Source: Pelagomonas calceolata
Taxonomy: Eukaryota
Length of the DNA stretch: 64,000 nt
Reading direction: 5' to 3'
Assembly: GCA_918797485.1 (NCBI GenBank)
Contig: CAKKNE010000001.1
Span: 4,588,001-4,652,000 of the forward strand
Notes under the pieces: model-generated
The model's input: only the letters and a program-made list of their open reading frames with translations
The model's database searches: none
What the model was told of the DNA's origin: nothing
Shown here: positions 20,217-49,662 of the stretch, one piece after another
Layout: every line of letters starts with the position of its first letter
Position numbering within the stretch: position 1 is the stretch's first letter
Translations under genes and position numbers: made by a program

Positions 20217-21814
20217 TTACTCGCCGGCCGCCGCCCGCAGCCGCTCCCAGTGCGCGACGGCCGCGCCGACGAGCGCGTAGGCGTCGTGCGTGCCGTCGGC
20301 GCAGTTGAAACAGAGCGTGGCCTGGCCGCCGACGGTGGACAAAGCAGCTCCGACGGCTACACCGGGCGGCGGCGGCAGGAACGGCACGACGCGCTTCACC
20401 GGCCGGCCGCAGATCGTCAGGGCGACGGGCGGGCCCCGCACATTTGTGAGGGCCACGGCGCACCCGCCCGCCGACGCCCGCAGCGACGCGGGCACCCACG
20501 CCCTCGGGAGGCACCGGCCCGCGAGCCGGGCCGCGTGGTAGGCCACGACGGCCCGGGCGCCGCCGCGCAGCGCGCCGCCCACGCCGTCGCGGACCCGTCT
20601 CAGGTGCGCGGCCTCGTCGCGCCCGGGCAGGGGCAGCCGCGCAACGACCGCGCCGATATGATTGCCCACGTCCACACCGGGCGGCAACGCGCCGCCATAA
20701 AGGTGCACCGGCACGGCGCACGCCACCGCGTCTCTCGAAACGGACGTCCGCAGCGCGGCCGCGACCAGCGCCGCGTAGAGGTCGTTGACGGTCGCGCCGG
20801 GCGCCAGCTTCTTCGCGACGCGCTTGAGCAGCGCGACGTCGGCGAAGTCCGACGCCCACGCGACGGTCCGCGGGCCCCGCCGCCGCGGCGGGGGCCGCGG
20901 CGCCGCGACGACCATCCACAACGACGCCAGCACGGCCCGGAGCAGGCGCAGCGACATGACGAGCGGCCCGAACATCACACGCAGCAGGCGCGCCAGCCGG
21001 CTCCGCCGCCGCCGCCGGGGCCCCTGCCTCAGCAGCGCGTCGATTTCCTCGCGCTGGTCCGACAGATTGCCGAACAGGGCCCCGAACGACGCGCCGTCGG
21101 CGATGCAGTGGTGCGACCGCAGGAGGACGTCCGTGCCCGCGCCGCGCGGCCAGACGAGCGCCTCCCACCAGGGCCGCTTCTCCAGCGTGCCCCTTAAAGG
21201 TAGGTCGAGGACCCTGGCGATCGTCCTTGGTAAATCCATCGTCGGCCGCGCCTCCATGACCTGTGTGGAAATCAACCAGTGCGTCGGGTGCACAAAACTT
21301 CACGAAGTCATTTCTCGGCGATGACGTGGCCGCAAGGTCGAGCGGCGAGGAACCGGCATCGCCACGCCATCGATCAGGCATCGCGTCGATGACGTGGAGG
21401 ACGACTCGATTGTCAACTCTGAACGCGTCGTAAAATTTTGATTTCCACACAGTCCATGACGACGGGCGTCGCCTCCTCCGTCGTCAGATCCTCGACGAAC
21501 TCCAGCCGCTCGGCGTCGACGCGGCTCCGGAGGCGCGGCGACGCCGGCGCGACGCGGTCCGCGAGCGCGCGCTCGAGGTCCCTGGCCGCGAGCGGCGCGC
21601 CGCCCAGCTCGAGCAGCACGGCGGGCACCGACGGCGCGTCCCGCGTCTCCGACAGCAGCGCGAAGCGGCCGATCGGCGTGAGCCGCCGCCGGACCGCGTC
21701 GCAGTCCGTCGGCGGCGCGTCGCAGTCCGTCGGCGGCGGCGCCGCGAGCGACGCCGCGCACGCGCCGGCGGCGTACCTGGCCGCGGCCGTCCAGGGGACG
21801 CGGGCGGCCCACAT
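20217..21814 (-). CDS. Wax ester synthase/diacylglycerol acyltransferase (WS/DGAT) family (2 exons; intron 21261-21460)
   Basis: Catalytic HHCIADG, plus ATVND and TNVRGP motifs. Exons join as EEATPV|VMEARPT once the introner is removed. Confidence 0.85.
21261..21452. mobile_element. Introner element copy 1 (192 bp, non-autonomous TIR transposon)
   Basis: TIR CTGTGTGGAAATC...GATTTCCACACAG. Perfect 8-bp TSD TCCATGAC at 21253-21260 and 21453-21460. Confidence 0.93.
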
Positions 21815-28894: not shown

Positions 28895-31800
28895 TCACCG
28901 CGCAGGAGTATCGGGGCCGCCGCGTAGCTCGGCTTTGATCGCGGCGAACGTCGGCCGCGCGTCCGGCTCGTGGGCCCAGCACCGTTGCATGAGCGCGACG
29001 AGGTCCGCGGGCGCGTCGCCATCGATCTTCGGGCGGTCCTTCTGAATGCACACCTGCATCATGATTTGCATCTGATTGAGGCCCGACCATGGCGTATCTC
29101 CGGTAAGTACCTCGAAGACGATCATGCCGTAGGCGTACACGTCGCCCTTTTCGGTGAAAATGTTGTGCTGGAGTAATTCGGGCGCCATGTACGCAGGCGT
29201 GCCTTTGGCGTCGCCCCCGGCCGTCGCCTGCGTCGCCGCCGTGGCCAGCGACTCGGATTTGCTCAAACCGAAGTCCGTCACCTTGCAGCGCCGGTCGCCG
29301 TCGAGGAGGATGTTTAACGTCTTGAGGTCGCGATGCTCCACGCCCTTGGAGTAGAGGTACGCCATCCCGAGCGAGATGTCCGATAGCCAGCTCCTCCGCT
29401 GCGCTTCGTCAATACTTGCCGCGTCGTCGGCGTCGAGCGCCTCGCGCAGGTCACCGCCGCCGCAGTACTCGACGACCAAGCCCAGCCAAGTTGTGTCCGT
29501 TGTCACCACCCCATACACGGCGACGATGCGTGGGCTCCTGAGCTTGACCATGATTGCGAGCTCGGTCGAGAAGTCCTTCATCATCTTGTTCCGCTTCGTC
29601 GCCGTGATGCCGACCTGTGTGGAAACCAGTGTGTCGGGTGCACCCAACAATTCTTCACTAAGTCACCTCGCAGCGATGGCGCGGCTTTTTTTTGGCTCGG
29701 TCGAGCGGCGAGGAACCGGCATCGCCACGCCATCGAGCAGGCGGCGCGTCGATGGCGTGGAGGACGACGCGGCGATTCAGCACGAACGCGCCGTGAATTT
29801 TTGATTTCCACACAGATGCCGACGAGACTCATCTTCTTCAGCGCGACCACGTCGCCTTGGTACGAAGCCTTGTGAACGGCGCCCTGCGAGCCCTTCGCGA
29901 TGGGCTTCTCTTCGACCGAGTCCAACTCGATCTCCAGCTCCTCGAGCGCCCTATCTTTATCCTGGCGCGCCAGCGCGCGGCCCCGCAGCTTCGAGTTCTT
30001 CGCCGCCACCATCTCTTTCACTTCGTCGAGCGACTCCTGCTGCTTCGTGTTCTGGTCGATGACGGTGCTCACGTCCGCGGCGATCTGGTCCAGCTTCAGG
30101 CCGAGCGCCGAGAGCTCCTCGCTCTCGACGGCGCTGCCCTTCTGGATGCCGCACATGATCGCCGCCCGCTGCGCCGCCGCCTGGTTGTTCGCGTCGACCG
30201 TCTGCTGGCCCAGCAGCTGGATCAAGCCCTCGATCTTCTCGAACCGCTGCGCCTGGAGCGCGAGCTGTTGGAGGTCCAACGCCGAGCCGAGCTCGTTGCT
30301 GAGCTCGCAGAGCCGCTTGTCGAGGAGACCAAAGCGCCGCGCGTCGAGCGAGCCGGAGCAGAGCTTCTTAAACGCGCCCTTCTTCGAGAACTGCTGGAGA
30401 AACTTGGCCGCCTCGTCGAGCGCCTGGCCGATGGCCGTCACCGTCCGAGCGACGGCCTCGACCTGTCCCGTCGGCAGGCCCTGCGTCGCTTTGACGACGT
30501 CCTGGAGCTTCTGGGCGATCTCCGTTCCGCGCCGCTGCAGCATGGCCGCGGCTTCCTTGTTGAAGCGCACCTGACGCACCGCGAGGCCGAGTTCGGCCAA
30601 CGCGCTCGTGAACGGCATCAGACACATATTGAGCGGCGGCGGCGCGGCCGCGGGGAGCGCCGCCAGAACCCCGGAGAGCGGCCCGAGGATGTCCATCTGC
30701 GACGCCGTGAGCGCGGCGCCGGCCGCGGCGCCGGCCGCGGCGCCGGCCGCGGCGCCACCGAAGGCGAGCTTGTTGCCCGTGGCGGACGCGGCCGCCGGTT
30801 GCGGCGCCGGTTGCCGCACCGGTTGAGGCGCCGGCACCGGCACCTGGAGCTGGGTCCCGGGTCCAGCCCCGGGCGGGACGACGATGTCTATGGGTTGTCC
30901 CGATGGCGTCATAACCCGGAGCGTGGTGCCAGGCGCCGCGCCCGGTGGAATTGTGATGGTCATGGTCTGCTGCTGCGAATAAGGCGCGGCGGGCGCTTTG
31001 TCCGGCTTCGCGGCGGGCGCGACCTTCGTGCCCTCGTCCTTTTTCTTGCACATCATCTTGCGGCAGAGGTAAACGATGCCGCAGAGGCAGCATAATGGTA
31101 ACATGACGCAGACTATGAGGATGAAGGCGATGCAACCGCCGTCGCACTCGTCCTCTTCGTACGCCGTTGGGGACTTGGTCGAGACCGGCTGCGCTGCAAC
31201 GGGCGCAGCCACAGCATCGACAGTCGCCGTCGCGAAAACGCTGGAGACACCCGCGTCGGCCGCGGCGGTCTGAACGGCAGCGTCGAAGACGGTGGCTGTG
31301 GGAACCAATGCAACTGCGGCCGTCGCGTCCGCCATGGTTGCGTAGAGAATTGTGTAGTCGACGACGACGCTGCCGCTCTGGAGACGCCTTCGGCCAGATG
31401 AAAACGTCACGGTAACCCTGTTGGCTTGGACGTCGTACACGTCGGCGACTGCCGACGCGTAGACGCCCGCGTTCGACTCTGCGTCCGCCAGCGAGATGCC
31501 CGCGCAAGTCATCGATCCCTCGAGGGCGCCGTCGGAGTTGGTGGGCAATACTTGCGGCGTTGGCGGGGGCGTCGCGCAGTTGTCCATTTGCACGACGCCG
31601 CAGGACGTCGACGCGCACGGGGTGCCGGGGAACGAGGGATTGACGTCGTCGCCCACGCACCAGCCGAGGTCCTGGTTAAAGGCCGAGGCACCGTTGAACA
31701 TCCCACTCATATCTAAGACGCCATCAACCACCCAACCACTGATGTCCTGGTTGAAGGCCGAGGCGCCGAAGAACATCGCGCTCATATCCGTGACGCTGTC

Positions 31801-34047
31801 GACCGCCCAACCACTGATGTCCTGGTCGAAGGCCGAGGCAGAGGTGAACATGAAGCCCATCTCATTGACGTTGGCAACGCTCCAGCCGCCAATATTCTGA
31901 TTGAACGACGAGGCGTACCAGAACATCCCGTACATGCTCGTAACGCCAGAGGTGTCCCACGCGCCGATGTCCTCGTTGAAGGACGCCGCGGCCGTGTTGC
32001 AGTACCCATATCCTGAGTGGTCATCAGGGCTTGCACAAAACAAATACGACATGTCCGTCACCCCTGCGGTCGCCCACGTAGAAATGTGGCCGTAGGTCGC
32101 CTCGGCGGCCGCCTGGTCGTCAAACCAAGCCGCGACGGCCGCCCTGATGTTGGCGTCCGTGACGTCGCCCTTGGCGGTCGGCCGCGGCGTCGGGCGCGGC
32201 GTCGGTTTGTCCGTCGGGCGCGGCGACGGCTGCGGCGAAGGACCAGGTGTTGTCGGCATGGACGTGGGCCGCGGCGTCGGCCATTGAGTAACTTTGCAGA
32301 GAGGCTTCGATCCGCCGTGTTCTTCTGGCACGTCGTACCAACGACCTGTCGACTCGACGCCCTCCGTCTCGCAGCAGTTCATAATGGCGTACCTTTCGTC
32401 GTTCCCCTCGTGATTATTCGGTTCCCAATCCTCCCAGTTCGAATAGCCCCAGGGGACGTAGTCGTAGTCGTCGCAGCCCGACGAGGTCCCCTCGACCTGC
32501 AGCTCAAGCACCCACTCGGTAGAGTACAGCTGGAGCGGCGCGTCGAGCGAGTTGCCACTCTCGGCATGATACGTGCTTCCGGTCTGGCTCGACGTCGCCT
32601 CGACGTCGCCGTTGATGAAAATCGACATCGCCGGCGCGTTGGCAGACGAAGAGAACACGACCGTCACCCAGTCGGTCGATTCCAGCCGTGAGTGCGTATC
32701 CCGGTGCCCCACAAACGCCATGCATGGGCCGCCTGCATTCTTATCTTGAGAGACCACGCTGTTGAGGCACATGTGCGTCGTATATTGATCGCTGTCGCCA
32801 AGCGTGAGCCACGCCACGACGTGCCCCTCGAAGTCGTACAGGGTCCAACCTTCAAGACTCCTTCCATCGTTCACGTCTTGAGCTCTGAATCGGAGCTCGG
32901 CGCCGTCCGGGTTAAAGTCGGACAGGACCAATTGTCTGCTCCCGACGGAGGCAATGTTACAGGCGTAAGTCACCTCCGAGTCGTCCACCCACTGCCACGT
33001 CTGGCTCTCCTTGGGCGTCGACGCGTCGCCGCCGACTTCTTCGAGGCCGATCCAGCACGACGAGTCGCCGCAGGCCTCGCGCGCCAGCTCGTTTTCGGTC
33101 GCGCTATGGATGGTCGCGATCTCGGCGCCTATGCTCTGGCAATAGGATTCGGCCGCTGCGTAGTCGCCCGCCTGGCTTCCCGCGACGAAAAGGGGGTTTG
33201 TACCCGGGCAGCACGTGTATTCACAGTCGTCCTCGGTCGGGTTTGGCGGCATCGGGGTGTAGCCGTTCGCGCATGTCGCCGGTTCGCCCCAATCCATCGA
33301 GGCGCAGCAGTCGTAACCATCTCCGCCATCGGTGGACGTGCAGTAGTCCGCGCGACAGCCGTTCGCCCACCTCCAGTCCTCGTACCAGTACTGGACGGCA
33401 AGCGCGTCGTTGCTGCATCCGACGGTGAGTACGTAGTTGCCCGCCGCGCCCGCGTCGCGCGCGTAGTCGGTGTCGCAGTCCGTCTCGAGTGTTTCGCCGT
33501 GATCCGAATAGCCGGTGACCTGGAGCACGTACGTTTCGCCGGCCTGGAGCGGCTGGGAGGTCCAGACGTCCTCGCGGGGCTCCTCGCGACCGTCGAGTGC
33601 GCGGCAAACGTCCTCGCCGGGGTCGTCCCACTCGCCGATGAGACTCACCGCGCCGGCGTGCGGCGCGGGCGATCGGAGGCAGGTGTCCGCCTCGTAGTCG
33701 ACGACGTCGTAGAGGTAAAGATATGTGTCGTAGTCGGAGCCGCACGTCGAGAAGTGGTAGTAGGCCGTCTCGGAGGGCGTGATCACATAGAAGTGGTCGG
33801 GCGCGTCGTTGCCCGAGAGCCAGTGCGCCGCATTGGCTGTGGACTCATGTCTAGTCTCACCGCACGCGATATTTTCGACGAACACGTCGTCCTCGAGTCG
33901 GCGGCCGCGCTCTTTCGGCGCGCTGACCTCGGCGACGAGGCGCTCGGCCGGGGCCGCGGCGCCTCCCGCCAGCAGCAGCACGCCGGCGAGGCGGCATAAA
34001 GCAGCCCCGGCGCCGCGCGCAGCGCGTTTTCTTTGGGGGCTGCGCAT
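28895..34047 (-). CDS. Single-pass receptor kinase: mosaic ectodomain (PPC-like beta domain, Cys-rich module, C-type lectin, DUF285/BspA-like repeats, SEA-like), TM, MLKL-like four-helix bundle, TKL kinase (intron 29615-29823; possible 35-nt intron 28864-28898)
   Basis: Signal-like N-terminus and TM CIAFILIVCVMLPLCCLCGIVYLC. Kinase motifs VALKK, HRDLKTLN, DFG and GTPAYMAPE. Exons join as KKMSL|VGITATK after introner removal. Confidence 0.85.
29615..29815. mobile_element. Introner element copy 2 (201 bp)
   Basis: CTGTGTGGAAA...TTTCCACACAG TIR. Perfect TSD ATGCCGAC at 29607-29614 and 29816-29823. Interior similar to copies 1 and 4. Confidence 0.93.
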
Positions 34048-34419: not shown

Positions 34420-36033
34420 CTACCGCGACACGGGCTCCGCGACGGGCTCCGCCGCCGGCTCCGCGGCGGGCCCCTTTCGCGCGGCGGCGAGGCCCGCGCG
34501 GAGGTCCGCGAGGTACGCGTAGTAGGCGTCGGGCCGCCACCGCGCTTCCGTGTACGGCGTGTGCGGCCCGATCAGGTCGCCGCCGCGCGAGAGGAACGGT
34601 CCGACGAGCTTGTCGAGCAGGTGGGGCAGCGAGTTCAGGAGCATGGGCGCCATGAAGCGCTTCGGGATGCAGGCCCACCAGACGAGGCCGCCCATCCAGA
34701 CGTGGCCCGCGCCCGACAGGCGCCAGCTCAGGAAGTGCTCCCAGAGCGCGTCCGGGAGCCGGAAGAAGCCCGTGAAGAAGTCGCGCAGCTCGCGCGGGTT
34801 CAGCACGCAGAGCAGCTCGAACCCAAAGTGCATGAAGTCCCGCTGCCGCCGGTCGTCCGCGGGCCACGTCGCGGCCCAGGCCGCCTCGGAGAGCGCGTCG
34901 AAGGCGTCTCCGTCGGTGTCGCCGCGCGCCGCCACGCGCCGCGCCTCCGCCAGCCGGGGGTGCGCCGCGAGCGCCGCGCCGACGCGCGGCGCGACTTCCA
35001 AGGCCCGCGCGACCATGTAGCCCGACGCGGGGTGGACGCACGACGCCGTCGCGCCGCATCCCACAACACGCTGCGGCACGACGGGGTCCATGCCGCCCAT
35101 GGGGATGGCCGCGCGCTCGCTCTCGAGGACCTCGAAGTGCTCGATGCCGTACGAAACAGATAGTCTTTTTCGAAGGCGCGCCTCGAGGTCCGCCGAGTCC
35201 GCGCCCGGTCTAGATACAAGCACCGTCTCCTCGAAGAAGATCTCGGTGTCGGAGATGGGCATGACGTACATGAACGTGGGAAAGCGCTCGTTCCGCTTCC
35301 TCATTTCATCGTCGCCGCCGATGTACTCGTCCCGATAGTCCATGAGCACCAACTTGTCGAGGGGGAAGGGGTGCTTCTCCACTTTGAGGAGCGCGCCGTA
35401 GGTCACCTGGTAGCCGGGGTCGAACGCGACGTCGTGTTTTACAAATTTCCTCCTAAATCCAGTAGCGTCGACGACGACGCAGGCGCGGACGGAGGAACCG
35501 TCGTCGAATTCCACCGCGGTGCCCTCGACGTCCACCGCACGCTTCGTCAGGAGCGTCGCGCCGCCCGCGGCGCACGCGTCGACCAGGCGCCGCTTCAGCC
35601 GTTTCCGATCCACGCGGCCGTAGGGCCGCTGGAGCGTGACGTTCTCCAGCGCGCCCGGCGCCGCGTCCTCGAAGACGACCGAGGACTCCGTCCAGACGAC
35701 GTCGACGCAGTCGTCGAAGCCGAGCGGTTCGACCTCGTCGATCCAGACGCCGTAGTTGTTCGGCCAGTCCCGCCCGAGCGCGGGGTCCGCGACGCACACT
35801 TTTAATCCGCGAGCGGCGCACTCGGCGGCCGTCGCGAGGCCCGCCGGGCCGGCGCCGCAGATGGCGACGTCGTAGACGTCGTCGTCATGCTGCGGCGCTG
35901 CGGCGCCGTTAGCCGGCGCACTCTTGAGGGCGGCGAGCCGCGGTCGGCCCGTCAAGGTGGTGCGCGGCCCTGGCGTCAGCGGAGCTGCAGCGGCAAGCAG
36001 AGTCGCCGCGGCGACCAGATGTCGTCGCCGCAT
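34420..36033 (-). CDS. LCYB: Lycopene beta-cyclase, plastid-targeted
   Basis: FAD motif DVAICGAGPAG; WPNNYGVWIDE, MDYRD, PTFMYVMP, FFEETVLV, VHPASGYMV. Confidence 0.9.
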   Translation of the reverse strand: MRRRHLVAAATLLAAAAPLTPGPRTTLTGRPRLAALKSAPANGAAAPQHDDDVYDVAICGAGPAGLATAAECAARGLKVCVADPALGRDWPNNYGVWIDEVEPLGFDDCVDVVWTESSVVFEDAAPGALENVTLQRPYGRVDRKRLKRRLVDACAAGGATLLTKRAVDVEGTAVEFDDGSSVRACVVVDATGFRRKFVKHDVAFDPGYQVTYGALLKVEKHPFPLDKLVLMDYRDEYIGGDDEMRKRNERFPTFMYVMPISDTEIFFEETVLVSRPGADSADLEARLRKRLSVSYGIEHFEVLESERAAIPMGGMDPVVPQRVVGCGATASCVHPASGYMVARALEVAPRVGAALAAHPRLAEARRVAARGDTDGDAFDALSEAAWAATWPADDRRQRDFMHFGFELLCVLNPRELRDFFTGFFRLPDALWEHFLSWRLSGAGHVWMGGLVWWACIPKRFMAPMLLNSLPHLLDKLVGPFLSRGGDLIGPHTPYTEARWRPDAYYAYLADLRAGLAAARKGPAAEPAAEPVAEPVSR

Positions 36034-36239
36034 CTCAAGGCACTGCACCGTATCGCTCCTGTTGGTCTACGCTGCTCTGCGTTGCCACGACTGCTGCAGA
36101 TGTCTTCGTCAAGTCGTGTGGGTTGTGAGTGAGGCCTAGTGTGTCACAAGTAGCTGCAGTGTCTCAACGGAGGCCGCGTACGACATCCGAGTCCAACTTG
36201 TGTGCGTGCTTAACCGCTACTCGGAAGTTAGAAAAACCA

Positions 36240-44340: not shown

Positions 44341-46944
44341 ATGGGGGACGAGGATGCCGATGGCGGCTGCTGTACCATCAAGCGCGGCTCCGGGATCTGC
44401 ATCCTCGTGCTCTCCATCATCTCCTTCGTCGGCACCGTCATCTGCGCGCTCATCGCGTCCTTCACGCACATGCCCCTCTACGCGGCCTTCGGCTGGATCC
44501 ACTTCGTCCTCCTCATTTACCTCATCTCGGCCACCTCGGCCTACGTGTGCTGCCGCGCGTGCGGCAGCAAGGTCACGGGGGGGCTCGCCGTCGGCTACTG
44601 CGTCCTCGCCTTCGTGACCTTCATCGTCCTCGCGACGGGGCAGCAGTCCGCCATGGAGCACTATTGCGAAGGTACGGTGGAGTGCGCCTCCATCTCAGAC
44701 TGGGGCGATCATGATCCCGAGTGCGGGCACAAGACGTCGTCCTTCTCGCTGTGCTGGTTGCCGGAGACGGACGACCGCCGCCGCCGTCTCGCCGCAGCGC
44801 CAGCGTACGCTGAACCGGAAGAAGCTTCTGAGAAGAAAAAGGAGAAGACGAAGAAGAAAGATAGAAAGAAAGACCACACCATTACCAAGAGTTCCAAGAT
44901 CAAGACCAATGAGTCTCCGAGCTCGTCAGTCCAAAGCCTTGAGCAGCGGCGCGTGCTCGTCACGTCGTGCCCCATAACGAGGGATTTCTGCACGAACGAC
45001 GCCTCGCTCCCGGACAACTGCAATTGTGGGGATTGTGGCTACCCGGCGTGCGGCGATTGCGACTGCGATTACTACGGCGACGGACAGTGCTGCACGGGCA
45101 GCTGCACGAGCTGGTTATCGGCGCACGAGCGCTGCCACGACGCGCATGCCACGGGAGACGACGTGAGCTGCTGCGTCGGGGGCGACATCCGGGCGACGTG
45201 TCAGTGCGCCGCGCACTACGAGTGGTGGGACGACCGCCGGCTCTCCGCCGTCGACGAGCCGCGGCGTCTGGGTCACTGCTGCGACTACGGCGCGTACTGC
45301 TCTTGCATGGAGTCGGAGCTCGGCGCCGGCTGCACTGCGCCCGACTGCGGCGGCGACGACTGGGACGAGGACGACGAGGAATGCGACATCGAGACGTTCA
45401 GCGACCTCAATTCCTCTCCAGTCGGCACGACGAACCACGGCGCCGGAGACGGGTGGTGCTACAGCGACCTGGACGAATTCGTGGGCTGCGCGGCGTCGCC
45501 GGGCGACTGCTGGGCGATGTGCCTAGGCTACTACGGCGACGGCCTGGTGGCCATCGACTGGTGGTCGGATGAGGGCGGCCAGTGCTACTGCCAACACGAG
45601 TGCGAGTGCATGGAAGACGTCGGCGCCGGCGCAGGCTACACTGTCACGCGCGACTCGAGGGTCGGCGCGCTGCCGCACGAGTGTGGCCCCGACGAGGGCG
45701 ATGGCGGCGACTGGGACGAGGACGACGACGAGGACTGGATGTGGGAGAACGGCTGCCGCCCGGACTACTGCACCTCCTGGGCCAATGACTGCTGCGCCTC
45801 GATGGATTGGGGCGAACCGGCGACATGCGCGAACAGCTACACTCCGATGCCGTCAAACCCGTCCGAGGACGCCTGTGAATACACGTGCTGCCCCGCGTCT
45901 GTCACCGTGTCTGGCAGCGTGACCCTCTACGAGGACAAGAGCCGCGGCGCGGGATGCGACGCGCTCAGTTATATCAACAACGTCGTGGACGCGGACTCCG
46001 CTGACCACTGCTGCCAGGATGAGGACTATTGTTGCGATTACGGGTCATGCGCCTCTGATTCCGACTATTGTGGCCACCGGTTTCACTGCCCGGAATTCCG
46101 CGTTACCGGCGACCTCACCTTCGAAGGCATCACGTACGAAGCGGCGCAGGACAACACCGAAGTCTTCGTCGCCGCCGTCGCCGATCTCTGCGGCGTGGCC
46201 GCGTCCGCCGTGACCGTGGAAATATGGAGGGCCCGCCGCCGTCGCCTCGCGGAGGGAATCTTGGTGACGTACACCGTGTCCGTCGCGACCGCGAACGAGG
46301 CTCAAACGGTCACGAGCGTGATTTCGAGCAGCTCGACAGCAGACGTCGACGCCGCAATCAGCAAAGCCGCGACGGACGCGGGCGTCGACGACGATTTCGA
46401 CGTCGTTACGACGACCAACGTGGGTACGCCCACGACCCTGAGGTCGGACGGTACGCACGTTGACCCGACGTGGTACTACTCGAAGTGGCCCGACGACTGC
46501 CAGCACGGCGGTGGAGGCGACGACGTCTGCCGCGCGTTCAGGACACAAGACGACTGCATCAACTATTGCTATCAGGACGACGACGACGAGCAGTGCGAGG
46601 ACGTGGACGACCCGGAAGACTGCAATTGGTCGATCGTTACGCACGTCAACGCGGTGGCCGGCTGGTCGACGTTTTTTGCAGGGCTGGTGCTCTTTCCGAC
46701 TCTCGTGTGGGTCGTGCTCCTCTTCTTGGTCCCGGACCCGCAAGCTGCTGCGCCCGTGACCGCGGCGGTGGAGTTGCCACGCATGCAACCCCAAGTGATG
46801 ATGGTATCGCCCGTATCGCCGGGGGGCGGGCAACCTCAGGTGATCATGGGCCAGCCCCAGATTGTCCAGGCGGGGCAAGCTCCGGTGATCATGGGCCAGC
46901 CCCAGGTTGTCCAGGGTGCCCCGTCGAAGCTCGCCGAGTTCTAG
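44341..46944 (+). CDS. Multi-pass membrane protein with a large Cys/Asp-rich extracellular region
   Basis: Three N-terminal hydrophobic helices, many Cys clusters, an RRRL-containing SEA-like segment, a C-terminal TM and a Q/P-rich tail. Confidence 0.75.
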   Translation: MGDEDADGGCCTIKRGSGICILVLSIISFVGTVICALIASFTHMPLYAAFGWIHFVLLIYLISATSAYVCCRACGSKVTGGLAVGYCVLAFVTFIVLATGQQSAMEHYCEGTVECASISDWGDHDPECGHKTSSFSLCWLPETDDRRRRLAAAPAYAEPEEASEKKKEKTKKKDRKKDHTITKSSKIKTNESPSSSVQSLEQRRVLVTSCPITRDFCTNDASLPDNCNCGDCGYPACGDCDCDYYGDGQCCTGSCTSWLSAHERCHDAHATGDDVSCCVGGDIRATCQCAAHYEWWDDRRLSAVDEPRRLGHCCDYGAYCSCMESELGAGCTAPDCGGDDWDEDDEECDIETFSDLNSSPVGTTNHGAGDGWCYSDLDEFVGCAASPGDCWAMCLGYYGDGLVAIDWWSDEGGQCYCQHECECMEDVGAGAGYTVTRDSRVGALPHECGPDEGDGGDWDEDDDEDWMWENGCRPDYCTSWANDCCASMDWGEPATCANSYTPMPSNPSEDACEYTCCPASVTVSGSVTLYEDKSRGAGCDALSYINNVVDADSADHCCQDEDYCCDYGSCASDSDYCGHRFHCPEFRVTGDLTFEGITYEAAQDNTEVFVAAVADLCGVAASAVTVEIWRARRRRLAEGILVTYTVSVATANEAQTVTSVISSSSTADVDAAISKAATDAGVDDDFDVVTTTNVGTPTTLRSDGTHVDPTWYYSKWPDDCQHGGGGDDVCRAFRTQDDCINYCYQDDDDEQCEDVDDPEDCNWSIVTHVNAVAGWSTFFAGLVLFPTLVWVVLLFLVPDPQAAAPVTAAVELPRMQPQVMMVSPVSPGGGQPQVIMGQPQIVQAGQAPVIMGQPQVVQGAPSKLAEF

Positions 46945-47430: not shown

Positions 47431-49662
47431 ATGCGCCGCCTCGTCGCGCTACTCGCCACGACCGCGCGCGCCCAGACGCCGCGCCGCGTGCACGGCTTCG
47501 ACGTCCGGACGAAGGCGGGCCACGCCTTCAAGTGCCTCGACGCGTTTATCGCGCCGGCGCCGTGGAACGCGAGCGCGCCCGCGCTGATCGGCATATGCCA
47601 TCCCGGCCACCGCCAGCTGACCTGGGCCGGGGGCCGCTGCGGCTTTCGTTACGCGTCCACAGAAATGGATGCGCGCGTCGCGAGGGAGGCGGGCCACGAG
47701 GTCTTCGCCTGCGCCGTGCCGCCCACCGAGCAGCTCGACGGCAAGTTTTTGGGCGCGCGCCTCACGGACGGCGATCATAATAAAGCGATAAGCGTGACGG
47801 CGTCGACGTGGCCCTGGCGCCAGCGCTCTAAGAAATACGGCGTGGCGGTGACGTTCATGGGCAAGGACGTCGCCTGCGGCCTTAATAAAGGATTCGAGGC
47901 GCACTGCTTCCGGGACTGGCTCGAGTGGCACCGCCTGCTCGGCGCGGACCACTTTCTGGCGTACGACAACGGGTCGCGCGGGGACCACGCGTGGCTCCGG
48001 GTCGCGCGGCACTACGCGCGGCGCGGGCTGCTCACGCTCGTCGACTGGCCCTACCAGCTCGGCGGCGAGGGCACGACGGGCAACAACGTCGCGCAGCGCG
48101 CGCAGCTCTCGCACGCGGCCTTCGCGTTCTCGCCGCGCGTGGCCTGGCTCGGGACCTTTGACGTCGACGAGTTCTTCGCGCAAGCCGGTGTGGAAACCAT
48201 GGATCGATCTGAGGCGGTCGCGCAGGTCCCGGTGCCGCTCGGCAAAGCACCACAACTCAACGCGTCGATCAAAAAGCTCCTCGACGGCGTCGACGCGCCG
48301 GCGTTCCCCGACGAGGCGTATTCCGTCGTCGCCCCGATGCGCGACGCCCAGGCGCCGGACACGTGTCTTACATCAAACGGCGCGACGACGCGCCTCGCGG
48401 CCTGCTTTTACCTGTGTTGAAATCAAAATTTTACGGCGCGTTCAAGAATTGTCGTGCACCCGACGCACTGGTTGGTTTCCACACAGGCTCGTACTACCAC
48501 GCGACGGACGAGCGGGGCCACCCCAAGGCCTTTCGCCGCGGCGGCCGCGCGCACCCCATCTTCAGCCCCCACCGCGCCAAGGTCCTGCACGGGCCGGCGC
48601 GGGGCGCGACCCTCTGTGTGGAAATCAACCAGTCCGTCGGGTGCACGACAATTCTTCACTAAGTCATTTCTCGGCGATGACGCGGCCGTCCTGGCTCCGT
48701 CGAGCGGTGAGGAACCGGCATCGCCACGCCATCGAGCAGGCGTCGCGTCGATGGCGTGGAGGTCGACACGGTGATTCAGACGAACGCACCGTAAAATTTT
48801 GATTTCCACACAGGCGACCCTGGACGACGCGGCACACTTCGTGCACTACACGGGCCGCTACGGCTGCGGCGCGGCCGAATCCGCGGGCTGCGTCTTGTAC
48901 GAGGCGCTCCGGGCGTCGCCGGCCGTCGCGCGGCTCGAAGCGGTACTAGCGACGCTCCCGCCGCTCCCGATCCCGGCCCAGGCGCCCGTGTCGCCGGTGA
49001 CGCCACGGCCGACGCTCGCGAAGAATTCGGGCCCCTGGGCGCCGGACGAGGTAAAACGCTTCGACGCCGCGTTCAAGCGCTTCTATAACGACGGCCTCCC
49101 CGATTGGTCGGGCCGCGCTGCGGCCTACGTGGGGACGCGGGACAAGTACCAGGTCCAGACGTTCAAGCGCGCCCGCGTAAAACAAAAAGACCCTTACTAC
49201 ACTAGTACCCGACCCACGCGTGGTCGCAGCCGAGGTCGCGGAGCTCGACGGCGTCGAGCCACGCGCACTGGCAGCAGTAGGCCGCGTGGCCGTCGGCGGC
49301 CTCGGCCTCCTCCAGCAATCGCGCTGGATCGGGGTGGTAGTTCCGGAAGTGCAGGTACGCGGCGGTCGGCCGCCACCGGTAGCCCGGGAAGCGCGACACG
49401 TCGTGCGCGCACTTCGTGCAGCGCAGCCGCGCGGACACGACGCCGCGCATCTTCGACGGCGCGGCGCCGGCCGCGAAGCGCGCGCCGCCGACGAGCGCCG
49501 TCTTCCGCCTGCCCGGCTGCGGCGGCGGCGGCGCCCGGTCCTGGGCGAGGCGCGCGAAGAGCGACGACGCGCCGCCGCTCTTCTTTGATGGCGGGACCTT
49601 CGGCGGCGGCGGGTCGTCGCGGACCTTCGGCGACGGGCGGGGCGCCGCGTCCGCGCGCATGA
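47431..49662 (+). CDS. GT92/DUF23-like glycosyltransferase with a C-terminal Myb/SANT-like segment (introns 48404-48486 and 48606-48813; 3' end uncertain)
   Basis: DWLEWHRLLGADHFLAYDNGS and WLGTFDVDEF (DxD) motifs. Removing two introners restores the frame (AAC|SYYH...HPK; RG|ATLDDAAHFVHY). Confidence 0.75.
48412..48486. mobile_element. Introner element copy 3 (75 bp, internally deleted, opposite genomic orientation)
   Basis: CTGTGTTGAAATC...GGTTTCCACACAG. Degenerate TSD GCTTTTAC/GCTCGTAC (6 of 8 match). Confidence 0.85.
48614..48813. mobile_element. Introner element copy 4 (200 bp)
   Basis: TIR CTGTGTGGAAATC...GATTTCCACACAG. Perfect TSD GCGACCCT at 48606-48613 and 48814-48821. Confidence 0.93.

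What the first reader, a model, noticed from the sequence alone, without database searches (positions are those of the whole stretch)
28895..31140. Transmembrane receptor carrying an MLKL-like four-helix bundle and an active kinase: candidate one-protein sensor-executor of cell death
Seen: between the TM helix (~31060-31135) and the kinase lies a helical domain (~30270-30620), ELGLAVRQVRFNKEAAAMLQRRGTEIAQKLQD...IGQALDEAAKFLQQFSKKGAFKKLCSGSLDARRFGLLDKRLCELSNELGSALDL, followed by a brace-like coiled region. Established: this pattern (V..NK....L..R; L..A..F...F.K....KK......F..LD..L) matches the MLKL N-terminal/HeLo-like (MCAfunc-related) membrane-permeabilising domain. Animal and plant MLKLs are soluble and pair it with a pseudokinase. 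Here the kinase keeps VALK, HRDLK and DFG and is tethered to a lectin-type ectodomain. Inference: an algal innate-immune receptor coupling glycan or pathogen sensing directly to a necroptosis-like effector.
Basis: inference. Interest (0 to 1): 0.85.

Follow-up and report, generated by a model that had tools for sequence, protein, structure and literature searches.

The report
Algal receptor kinase with MLKL domain
A marine alga transcribes a gene for a predicted cell-surface receptor whose inner part joins a helix bundle related to the animal cell-death protein MLKL to an intact-looking kinase; the bundle likely works as a brake and clustering switch for the kinase rather than as a pore, but neither role has been tested.

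Summary
Observation confirmed; interpretation partly supported. One minus-strand gene (ATG 34047 to stop 28895, 1647 aa) encodes: ectodomain (split C-type lectin, ConA-like, DUF285), one TM helix, Gly/Ala linker, MLKL-homologous bundle, brace-like coil and a kinase with intact motifs. A 209-nt introner-type intron inside the kinase is spliced in RNA reads. Homology to MLKL is solid: Pfam MLKL_N reaches its cut-off, and a family profile ranks seven MLKL chains first (best E 2e-7). The confident model has an extra helix capping the place of MLKL's free N-terminus. The receptor layout recurs in Aureococcus and marine metagenomes with swapped ectodomains; soluble paralogues exist. MLKL domain plus active kinase is already known (wheat Pm13), where the bundle does not kill and the kinase does. 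With the blocked N-terminus, this makes a regulated receptor kinase likelier (0.5) than a one-protein pore-forming executor (0.2). I found no transmembrane receptor carrying this domain in ten paper searches. Function is untested.

The parts
28895..34047 (-). Whole gene, two exons, 1647 aa after splicing: single-pass receptor kinase with an MLKL-type cytoplasmic cassette
   Evidence: frames, intron; stranded RNA depth along the gene, spliced joint
33952..34047 (-). Predicted signal peptide (basic n-region, hydrophobic stretch at residues 14-32)
   Evidence: hydropathy only, KD 1.69; no dedicated predictor run
33190..33906 (-). Unassigned ectodomain modules (a beta-rich domain also seen in P0017 and P0023; a Cys-rich module with a 70% identical copy at window 45748-45918)
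   Evidence: no Pfam or NCBIfam hit
32290..33189 (-). C-type lectin domain split by an inserted ConA/LamG-like domain (32964-32440); the C-terminal half carries EPN and WYD motifs
   Evidence: Lectin_C 35.6 bits, cut-off 22.6; Laminin_G_3 E 0.006, below cut-off; insert covered by RNA reads; meaning of EPN/WYD as sugar-site motifs is recalled
32176..32283 (-). Pro/Thr-rich stalk
   Evidence: sequence
31618..32172 (-). DUF285 (PARCEL) repeat solenoid
   Evidence: PF03382 E 3e-40; TIGR02167 below cut-off
31186..31545 (-). Membrane-proximal domain with an RRRL motif; SEA-like by recalled resemblance only
   Evidence: motif in 8 of 15 records with a long N-terminus; no Pfam or PDB support
31063..31134 (-). 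Transmembrane helix followed by a basic patch and a KVAP motif
30820..30972 (-). Small Pro/Gly beta-module, present here and in P0007, at the C-terminus in P0017 and P0020
   Evidence: no significant Pfam hit
30697..30774 (-). Gly/Ala-rich linker directly before the bundle, conserved in the family
30646..30705 (-). Extra N-terminal helix alpha0 (like helix hG of basidiomycete MLKL-likes), followed by a Pro turn that is invariant in the 37 aligned rows that cover it
30274..30633 (-). MLKL-homologous four-helix bundle with the short cross helix between helices 3 and 4
   Evidence: dN/dS 0.13-0.21 in 5 of 6 loci
29932..30273 (-). Brace-like helical linker
   Evidence: family profile aligns to human MLKL 18-193, through the brace; dN/dS 0.13-0.22 in 5 of 5 loci
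29824..29931 (-). Kinase N-lobe, exon 1 part (AKGSQG loop, VALK)
29615..29823 (-). 209-nt introner-type intron: 11-bp terminal inverted repeats, 8-9-bp target-site duplication, GT taken from the duplication
   Evidence: spliced; intron-free form in P0042 and P0035
28895..29614 (-). Kinase exon 2 (alphaC Glu, HRDLK..N, DFG, APE): TKL-type RD kinase
   Evidence: PF07714 E 5.6e-53

Best explanation
This gene encodes a predicted single-pass receptor kinase whose cytoplasmic part is an MLKL-type cassette, and the bundle likely acts as an autoinhibitory clamp while the brace-like coil would cluster the kinase, so that the output is likely phosphorylation and not a pore. Shown: one transcribed gene, the domain order, homology of the bundle to MLKL, intact kinase motifs, purifying selection on bundle and coil, a multigene family with swapped ectodomains and soluble members. 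Inferred: a ligand or contact clusters the ectodomains; clustering releases the bundle; the coil brings the kinases together; trans-autophosphorylation starts a defence or stress response, possibly cell death further downstream. The ligand is unknown; the exchange of ectodomains fits recognition of varied foreign surfaces (I put a defence role at a little over even).
For: Domain order and single frame; 4 of 11 metagenome loci hold TM and bundle in one stop-free frame, L001 through to the kinase end; NCBI Aureococcus proteins KAK7232288.1, KAH8076711.1 and KAK7240453.1 carry DUF285, TM, bundle and full kinase. MLKL residue 1 aligns to model residue 29-30 in three MLKL structures, so the end that MLKL needs free is capped by helix alpha0 and tied to the TM; N-terminal tags compromise MLKL killing (PMC7305131, passages). 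In Pm13 the bundle and bundle+brace did not kill, brace-kinase did, and this needed kinase activity; the authors propose an inhibitory bundle (PMC11297308, passages). HRDLK..N is kept in the 21 of 48 records that show this motif. Helix alpha0 shows no clear constraint (dN/dS under 0.5 in 2 of 9 comparisons, 18 codons only) whereas the bundle core does. No segment of the linker-alpha0 region reaches TM-level hydropathy (maxima 1.17-1.91).
Against: All function is by analogy; Pm13 is an independent fusion in grasses with a soluble protein. The bundle keeps features that a killer would use: an invariant Pro turn, conserved Asn-Lys, Arg and a basic KKG loop, net charge +4, and in this copy a Met at the position of MLKL's start (not kept in Aureococcus). 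Distant relatives carry the same bundle without any kinase (WWE, SAM, collagen-like partners), so the bundle has a role that does not need a kinase. Two paralogues swap in a different kinase behind a nearly identical bundle (P0013, P0019), which argues against a fine-tuned bundle-kinase interface.
Confidence: 0.5

Rival explanations
1. One-protein sensor-executor: receptor clustering and autophosphorylation release the Gly/Ala linker-alpha0-alpha1 hairpin, which inserts into the membrane, either while tethered or after proteolytic release, to form a cation channel or pore.
For: True MLKL homology; the TM anchor holds the bundle 31-126 residues from the membrane; an Ala/Gly-rich stretch precedes the bundle in 13 of 17 distant relatives with a long N-terminus; HeLo-type killers release an N-terminal helix (PMC10197012, passages).
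Against: Blocked N-terminus; no TM-level hydropathy in the hairpin; Pm13 result; death activity of MLKL-likes with extra N-terminal helices is called open in PMC9815663; no cleavage shown.
Confidence: 0.2
2. Two-component system: the receptor is the sensor and nucleates or phosphorylates soluble paralogues whose bundle sits about 30 residues from the N-terminus; those are the executors.
For: Soluble paralogues are real genes: L002 and L010 have an in-frame stop upstream of the ATG, a shared non-coding upstream stretch (85% identical) and no TM segment in any of the three forward frames; their bundles are about 90% identical to the receptor's, so mixed oligomers are plausible.
Against: The soluble genes come from other samples; no whole genome was held to show that they coexist with this gene. 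They still carry linker and alpha0 in front of the MLKL start. None of the Aureococcus-named records looks soluble.
Confidence: 0.15
3. Non-immune environmental or contact receptor (light, nutrient, adhesion or flagellar signalling) in which the bundle is only a structural spacer.
For: 45 of 75 DUF285 genes of Pelagomonas calceolata are higher in low light, and DUF285 genes rise under nitrate limitation (10.64898/2026.09.29.755320, passages); the gene is expressed in culture RNA (growth conditions not shown); the kinase is of the RD type (that many immune receptor kinases are non-RD is recalled).
Against: A spacer would not need the conserved surface residues and the dN/dS of 0.13-0.21; ectodomain swapping and family expansion fit conflict better; DUF285 genes are in flux between Aureococcus and its giant virus (10.1101/2024.10.30.620910, passages).
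Confidence: 0.12
4. Artefact: an assembly chimera or two separate genes.
For: Raw reads of X21 give depth 0 on the gene's strand at 30713-30813, the Gly/Ala repeat, and no listed read or contig bridges TM to bundle; kinase depth is several times the ectodomain depth; L003 has a frameshift between TM and bundle.
Against: One uninterrupted frame; the same layout in independent assemblies and in another genus; an exact contig spans 30763-31408 and contig depth is non-zero in every bin for X1 and X2; paralogues sharing the kinase, or 3' bias, explain the depth step.
Confidence: 0.03

Closest known systems
Wheat Pm13 / MLKL-K and the Poaceae MLKL_NTD-kinase proteins (PMC10951266, PMC11297308)
   Same: MLKL-type four-helix bundle, helical brace, kinase with intact catalytic motifs, expanded family, repeated domain fusion.
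   Different: Pm13 is soluble with no signal peptide and the bundle at its N-terminus; its kinase is RLK/Pelle. Here the cassette hangs below an ectodomain and TM helix. The plant survey lists PLAC8, single, tandem, kinase, WD40, BRX and NLR fusions and no transmembrane receptor.
Animal MLKL and Arabidopsis AtMLKLs (PDB 6lk5, 6ux8, 4btf, 6ka4)
   Same: Homologous bundle and brace (profile E 2.3e-7; Z 9.4-10.7, rmsd 2.8-3.1).
   Different: They are soluble, begin with the bundle and carry a pseudokinase; here there is an extra helix, a TM tether and an intact kinase.
Basidiomycete MLKL-like (BaMLKL) and Goodbye-like domains of fungal NLRs (PMC9815663)
   Same: Extra N-terminal helix before the four-helix core and a short cross helix between helices 3 and 4; nearest Atlas clusters are basidiomycete and oomycete MLKL-likes (0.93-0.94).
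   Different: There the domain heads NLRs or amyloid-controlled effectors; here it is internal in a receptor kinase. Their death activity is also unproven.
Single-pass receptor-like kinases (plant RLK/RLCK; oomycete LRR-RLKs, seen as search listings only)
   Same: Variable ectodomain, one TM helix, cytoplasmic kinase, receptor and soluble members in one family.
   Different: I know of none (recalled, and none in the searches) with an MLKL-type bundle and brace between TM and kinase.

Membership tests
MLKL (animal and plant) | Four-helix bundle homologous to MLKL_N | tested here: met
   Foldseek alone gave no E<=0.001 (best TM 0.61 to 2msv)
MLKL (animal and plant) | Brace helices after the bundle | tested here: met
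   profile aligns to human MLKL 18-193; helix runs on in the model
MLKL (animal and plant) | Bundle at the free N-terminus of a soluble protein | tested here: not met
   MLKL residue 1 = model residue 29, about residue 1140 of the receptor
MLKL (animal and plant) | C-terminal pseudokinase | tested here: not met
   VALK, alphaC Glu, HRDLK..N, DFG and APE present; activity itself not assayed
MLKL (animal and plant) | Membrane permeabilisation by the bundle | not testable with these tools
   needs liposome or cell assays
MLKL-K / Pm13-type kinase fusion proteins | MLKL_NTD + brace + kinase with catalytic motifs | tested here: met
MLKL-K / Pm13-type kinase fusion proteins | Soluble, no signal peptide or TM helix | tested here: not met
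   TM helix KD 2.95; TM in 20 of 37 family records
MLKL-K / Pm13-type kinase fusion proteins | RLK/Pelle-family kinase | not tested
   only the Pfam class PK_Tyr_Ser-Thr was determined
Basidiomycete MLKL-like domain (BaMLKL) | Extra N-terminal helix plus short cross helix on the four-helix core | tested here: met
   model helices 4-23 and 114-120 against the description; no direct superposition with a BaMLKL model was possible
Basidiomycete MLKL-like domain (BaMLKL) | N-terminal domain of an NLR or of an amyloid-controlled effector | tested here: not met
   no NACHT or NB-ARC hit in either exon; the domain is internal
Single-pass receptor kinase | Ectodomain, one TM helix and cytoplasmic kinase in one protein | tested here: met
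Single-pass receptor kinase | Cleavable signal peptide and surface localisation | tested here: inconclusive
   hydropathy peak of 1.69 only
C-type lectin domain | Lectin_C profile above cut-off | tested here: met
   35.6 bits against 22.6
C-type lectin domain | Calcium-dependent sugar binding | not testable with these tools
   EPN and WYD are in the sequence; their meaning is recalled
SEA domain | Profile or fold match for the membrane-proximal domain | tested here: inconclusive
Introner element | Terminal inverted repeats, target-site duplication, about 210 nt, further copies, spliced | tested here: met
   210-bp intron peak ascribed to introners in P. calceolata (PMC9481584, passages)

The most novel reading that the evidence does not exclude
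Pelagophyte algae have built a family of surface receptors that sense, phosphorylate and execute in one chain: clustering by a virus or foreign glycan releases the tethered MLKL-type hairpin to open the cell's own membrane, a necroptosis-like suicide defence in globally abundant phytoplankton without NLR, RIPK3 or separate effector.
Probability: 0.2. Interest if true: 0.9.

Novelty: new variant of a known kind. Interest (0 to 1): 0.66.

Why it matters
The parts are known; their union in a surface receptor is, by the searches made, not described. It extends the MLKL/HeLo/RPW8 domain to an expressed, expanded receptor family in pelagophytes, which include an abundant open-ocean picoalga and the brown-tide alga with a cultured giant virus, so a candidate for how phytoplankton sense attack becomes testable. 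It also gives a natural test of an open question named in PMC9815663: whether MLKL-like bundles with an N-terminal extension still kill or have become regulatory modules. Receptor and soluble paralogues with nearly identical bundles make matched test pairs.

Tried and rejected
No whole genome was held, so paralogues per genome were not counted; the window holds no second copy of bundle or kinase. Single-sequence search of PDB gave nothing (best E 0.27). The confident model also gave no Foldseek match at E<=0.001 in PDB or in viral structures; in the wide structural search designed bundles and GCP4 tie with MLKL, so the fold match alone is not decisive and the homology rests. No viral contig encodes a relative (6 pattern matches, 0 confirmed). 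One search covered only proteins of 2896-5000 residues and is uninformative. The trimer prediction for bundle plus brace returned no verdict (0.29, mark 0.32; alignment not used) and is used neither way. The SEA-domain guess found no support. A conserved internal start at the MLKL position is rejected: the Met is absent in Aureococcus. The tree of 31 rows is mostly unresolved (9 of 28 inner branches starred); soluble and receptor forms mix in one shallow group, no root was tested, and no order of events is claimed. dN/dS for the kinase was not obtained (no ungapped match). Expression under virus infection was not tested: the passages of PMC5917014 do not mention kinases and its two supplements were listed but not read.
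Full report
Gene and observation. The finding lies in one minus-strand gene. A single stop-free frame runs from an ATG at 34047 to 29824 (1408 aa); a 209-nt GT..AG intron (29823-29615) splits the kinase just after VALKKMSL; exon 2 ends at the stop at 28895; the spliced protein has 1647 residues. The intron has 11-bp terminal inverted repeats and a target-site duplication, and further copies lie at about 21260-21452 and 48185-48813; an intron peak at about 210 bp is ascribed to introners in Pelagomonas calceolata (PMC9481584, passages). With the closest named relatives all from Aureococcus anophagefferens (7 of 25 hits, 53-70% identical), the source is inferred to be a pelagophyte alga, probably Pelagomonas; this is not shown.

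Transcription. In four poly-A runs of one sample (6-12% of each read), reads lie on the gene's strand from 28902 to about 34300, and the intron is skipped in 57, 35, 42 and 43 reads. Against this: depth falls to 1-2 at 30711-30911 and to 0 on the gene's strand at 30713-30813 in run X21, the Gly/Ala repeat; no listed read or contig bridges TM and bundle; and fewer than half of the laid reads are 99% alike (941 of 2258 in X21), so paralogues or alleles contribute, above all over the kinase. A contig of X1 (RNA by guess) matches 30763-31408 without a difference. The fusion therefore rests on the open frame and on its recurrence elsewhere, not on one read.

Anatomy. From the N-terminus: a predicted signal peptide (hydropathy only), unassigned beta-rich and Cys-rich modules, a C-type lectin domain (35.6 bits, cut-off 22.6) split by a ConA-like insert (E 0.006, below cut-off), a Pro/Thr stalk, DUF285 repeats (E 3e-40), a membrane-proximal domain with an RRRL motif, the TM helix, a small Pro/Gly module, a Gly/Ala linker, the bundle, a coil of about 114 residues and a kinase of the PK_Tyr_Ser-Thr class with VALK, alphaC Glu, HRDLK..N, DFG and APE.

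The bundle is an MLKL homologue. The isolated domain scores 27.3 bits on Pfam MLKL_N (cut-off 27, E 2.8e-6); 22 of 25 homologues hit the same model at E<=0.01, all below cut-off. A search of 1.84 billion representatives gave 65 proteins; of the 32 I scanned, 14 hit MLKL_N at E<=0.001 and 3 pass the cut-off. A profile of 24 family sequences ranks MLKL chains first, 7 of the first 7 (human full length E 2.3e-7 over residues 18-193, through the brace; mouse 6.3e-5; next hit 0.022). The Atlas places the domain next to basidiomycete and oomycete MLKL-like clusters (0.93-0.94). With a 47-row alignment AlphaFold2 gives pLDDT 90.3 and pTM 0.84: helices 4-10 and 13-23, then the four-helix core with a short cross helix at 114-120. 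Foldseek finds no match at E<=0.001, though MLKL 2msv has the highest TM-score among the rows listed (0.61, rmsd 2.9). The wide search gives AtMLKL3 Z 10.7 (rmsd 3.1, 131 aligned), human MLKL 10.0 and mouse 9.4, tied with designed bundles and GCP4; such Z values are generic for helical bundles. In all three, MLKL's first residue aligns at model residue 29-30. The extra front helix and the cross helix match the description of basidiomycete MLKL-likes (PMC9815663, passages), whose death activity the authors leave open.

It is a family. Of 48 homologue records, 37 include helix alpha0; 20 of these 37 have a TM-level segment within 200 residues upstream, 31-106 residues from alpha0 (126 here); the records include strains, alleles and fragments and are not independent. 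Of 11 metagenome loci, 4 hold TM and bundle in one stop-free frame, 1 has a frameshift between them, 2 are soluble genes, and the rest are cut or fragmentary. Named Aureococcus proteins carry DUF285, TM, bundle and full kinase. Ectodomains vary: DUF285 in 7 of 25, Fea1 in 2, Lectin_C in none reported, one WD40 protein without TM. Two paralogues have another kinase behind the same bundle. Bundle and coil are under purifying selection (dN/dS 0.13-0.21 in 5 of 6 loci, the sixth frameshifted at 0.81; coil 0.13-0.22 in 5 of 5), whereas the 18 codons of alpha0 show no clear constraint. Among 27 distant relatives (about 25-45% identical; one named, Mallomonas annulata), 17 have 60 or more residues before alpha0, none of them a TM-level segment, and 13 of the 17 an Ala/Gly-rich stretch; partners include WWE, SAM and collagen-like domains. 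An internal bundle is thus common in these eukaryotes; the TM receptor form was seen only in the pelagophyte group.

How it most likely works. In Pm13 neither the bundle nor bundle plus brace killed cells, brace-kinase did, kinase-dead did not, and the authors propose an inhibitory bundle (PMC11297308, passages and section 12). N-terminal tags compromise MLKL killing (PMC7305131, passages), and HeLo-type and NLR killers rely on an N-terminal helix (PMC10197012 and PMC9950082, passages). Here that end is capped and tethered, and the linker-alpha0 region is not hydrophobic enough for a plain TM helix. I therefore put at 0.5 a receptor kinase in which clustering lifts the bundle and the coil brings kinases together; at 0.2 the direct sensor-executor; at 0.15 a receptor working through soluble paralogues; at 0.12 a non-immune receptor with a spacer bundle; at 0.03 an artefact. 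Against my reading: kinase-free relatives and kinase swaps show the bundle has a role of its own, and basic residues are kept. On the input: DUF285 genes are in flux between Aureococcus and its giant virus, which has 38 of them (10.1101/2024.10.30.620910 and PMC10720644, passages), but DUF285 genes also follow light and nitrate (10.64898/2026.09.29.755320, passages). No evidence ties this gene to infection.

Novelty. Ten full-text searches were made; those aimed at the architecture were 19, 20, 45, 68, 89 and 91, of which I saw listings and abstract starts and read passages of the papers named here. None describes a TM receptor with an MLKL-type bundle; MLKL with Aureococcus returns one review whose MLKL passages concern poxviruses and caliciviruses (PMC10583209). 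The plant survey of MLKL_NTD fusions lists no TM receptor; 12 of 20 supplementary files of PMC10951266 were searched without a relevant hit, 8 were not, and other supplements were not read, so a listed but undiscussed case is possible; subscription papers are not covered. The scan's own notes held no look-alike by sequence and none in this genome; a word search showed a WD40-Roc-COR protein with an internal MLKL-like bundle in a marine protist, unchecked here. Verdict: a real, expressed, new variant of the MLKL-kinase kind, a surface-receptor form; interest 0.66.

Noticed in passing
window 21260-21452, 48185-48486 (possibly nested), 48613-48813: Further copies of the same introner-type element, two with clear target-site duplications; reads with loose ends show many more copies in the transcriptome.
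   Followed up: partly
window 44341-46944 (+): An 867-aa membrane protein that shares the Cys-rich module (70% identical) and the RRRL membrane-proximal domain with the receptor but has no bundle or kinase: module shuffling among surface proteins.
   Followed up: partly
window 34420-36066 (-): Upstream neighbour that looks like a lycopene cyclase (recalled resemblance, not scanned).
   Followed up: no
window 32290-33189 (-): C-type lectin domain interrupted by a 175-residue ConA/LamG-like insert that is covered by RNA reads; paralogous reads skip about 568 nt here.
   Followed up: partly
P0097, P0099: Proteins with several WWE domains, Ala/Gly repeats and an internal MLKL_N domain above cut-off: candidate ADP-ribose-sensing MLKL-likes of unnamed eukaryotes.
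   Followed up: no
P0076, P0085, P0087, P0096 (Mallomonas annulata): A family of long proteins with Ala/Gly repeats, an internal MLKL-like bundle and collagen-like repeats, without kinase.
   Followed up: no
L009 3-1952; P0013, P0019: Nearly identical bundle and brace fused to a different kinase (DLG motif) and a Tudor-like domain.
   Followed up: partly
L002 1516 and L010 1495 (ATG): Soluble paralogues sharing an 85% identical upstream non-coding stretch; L010 begins with a remnant of the receptor's juxtamembrane VAP motif.
   Followed up: partly
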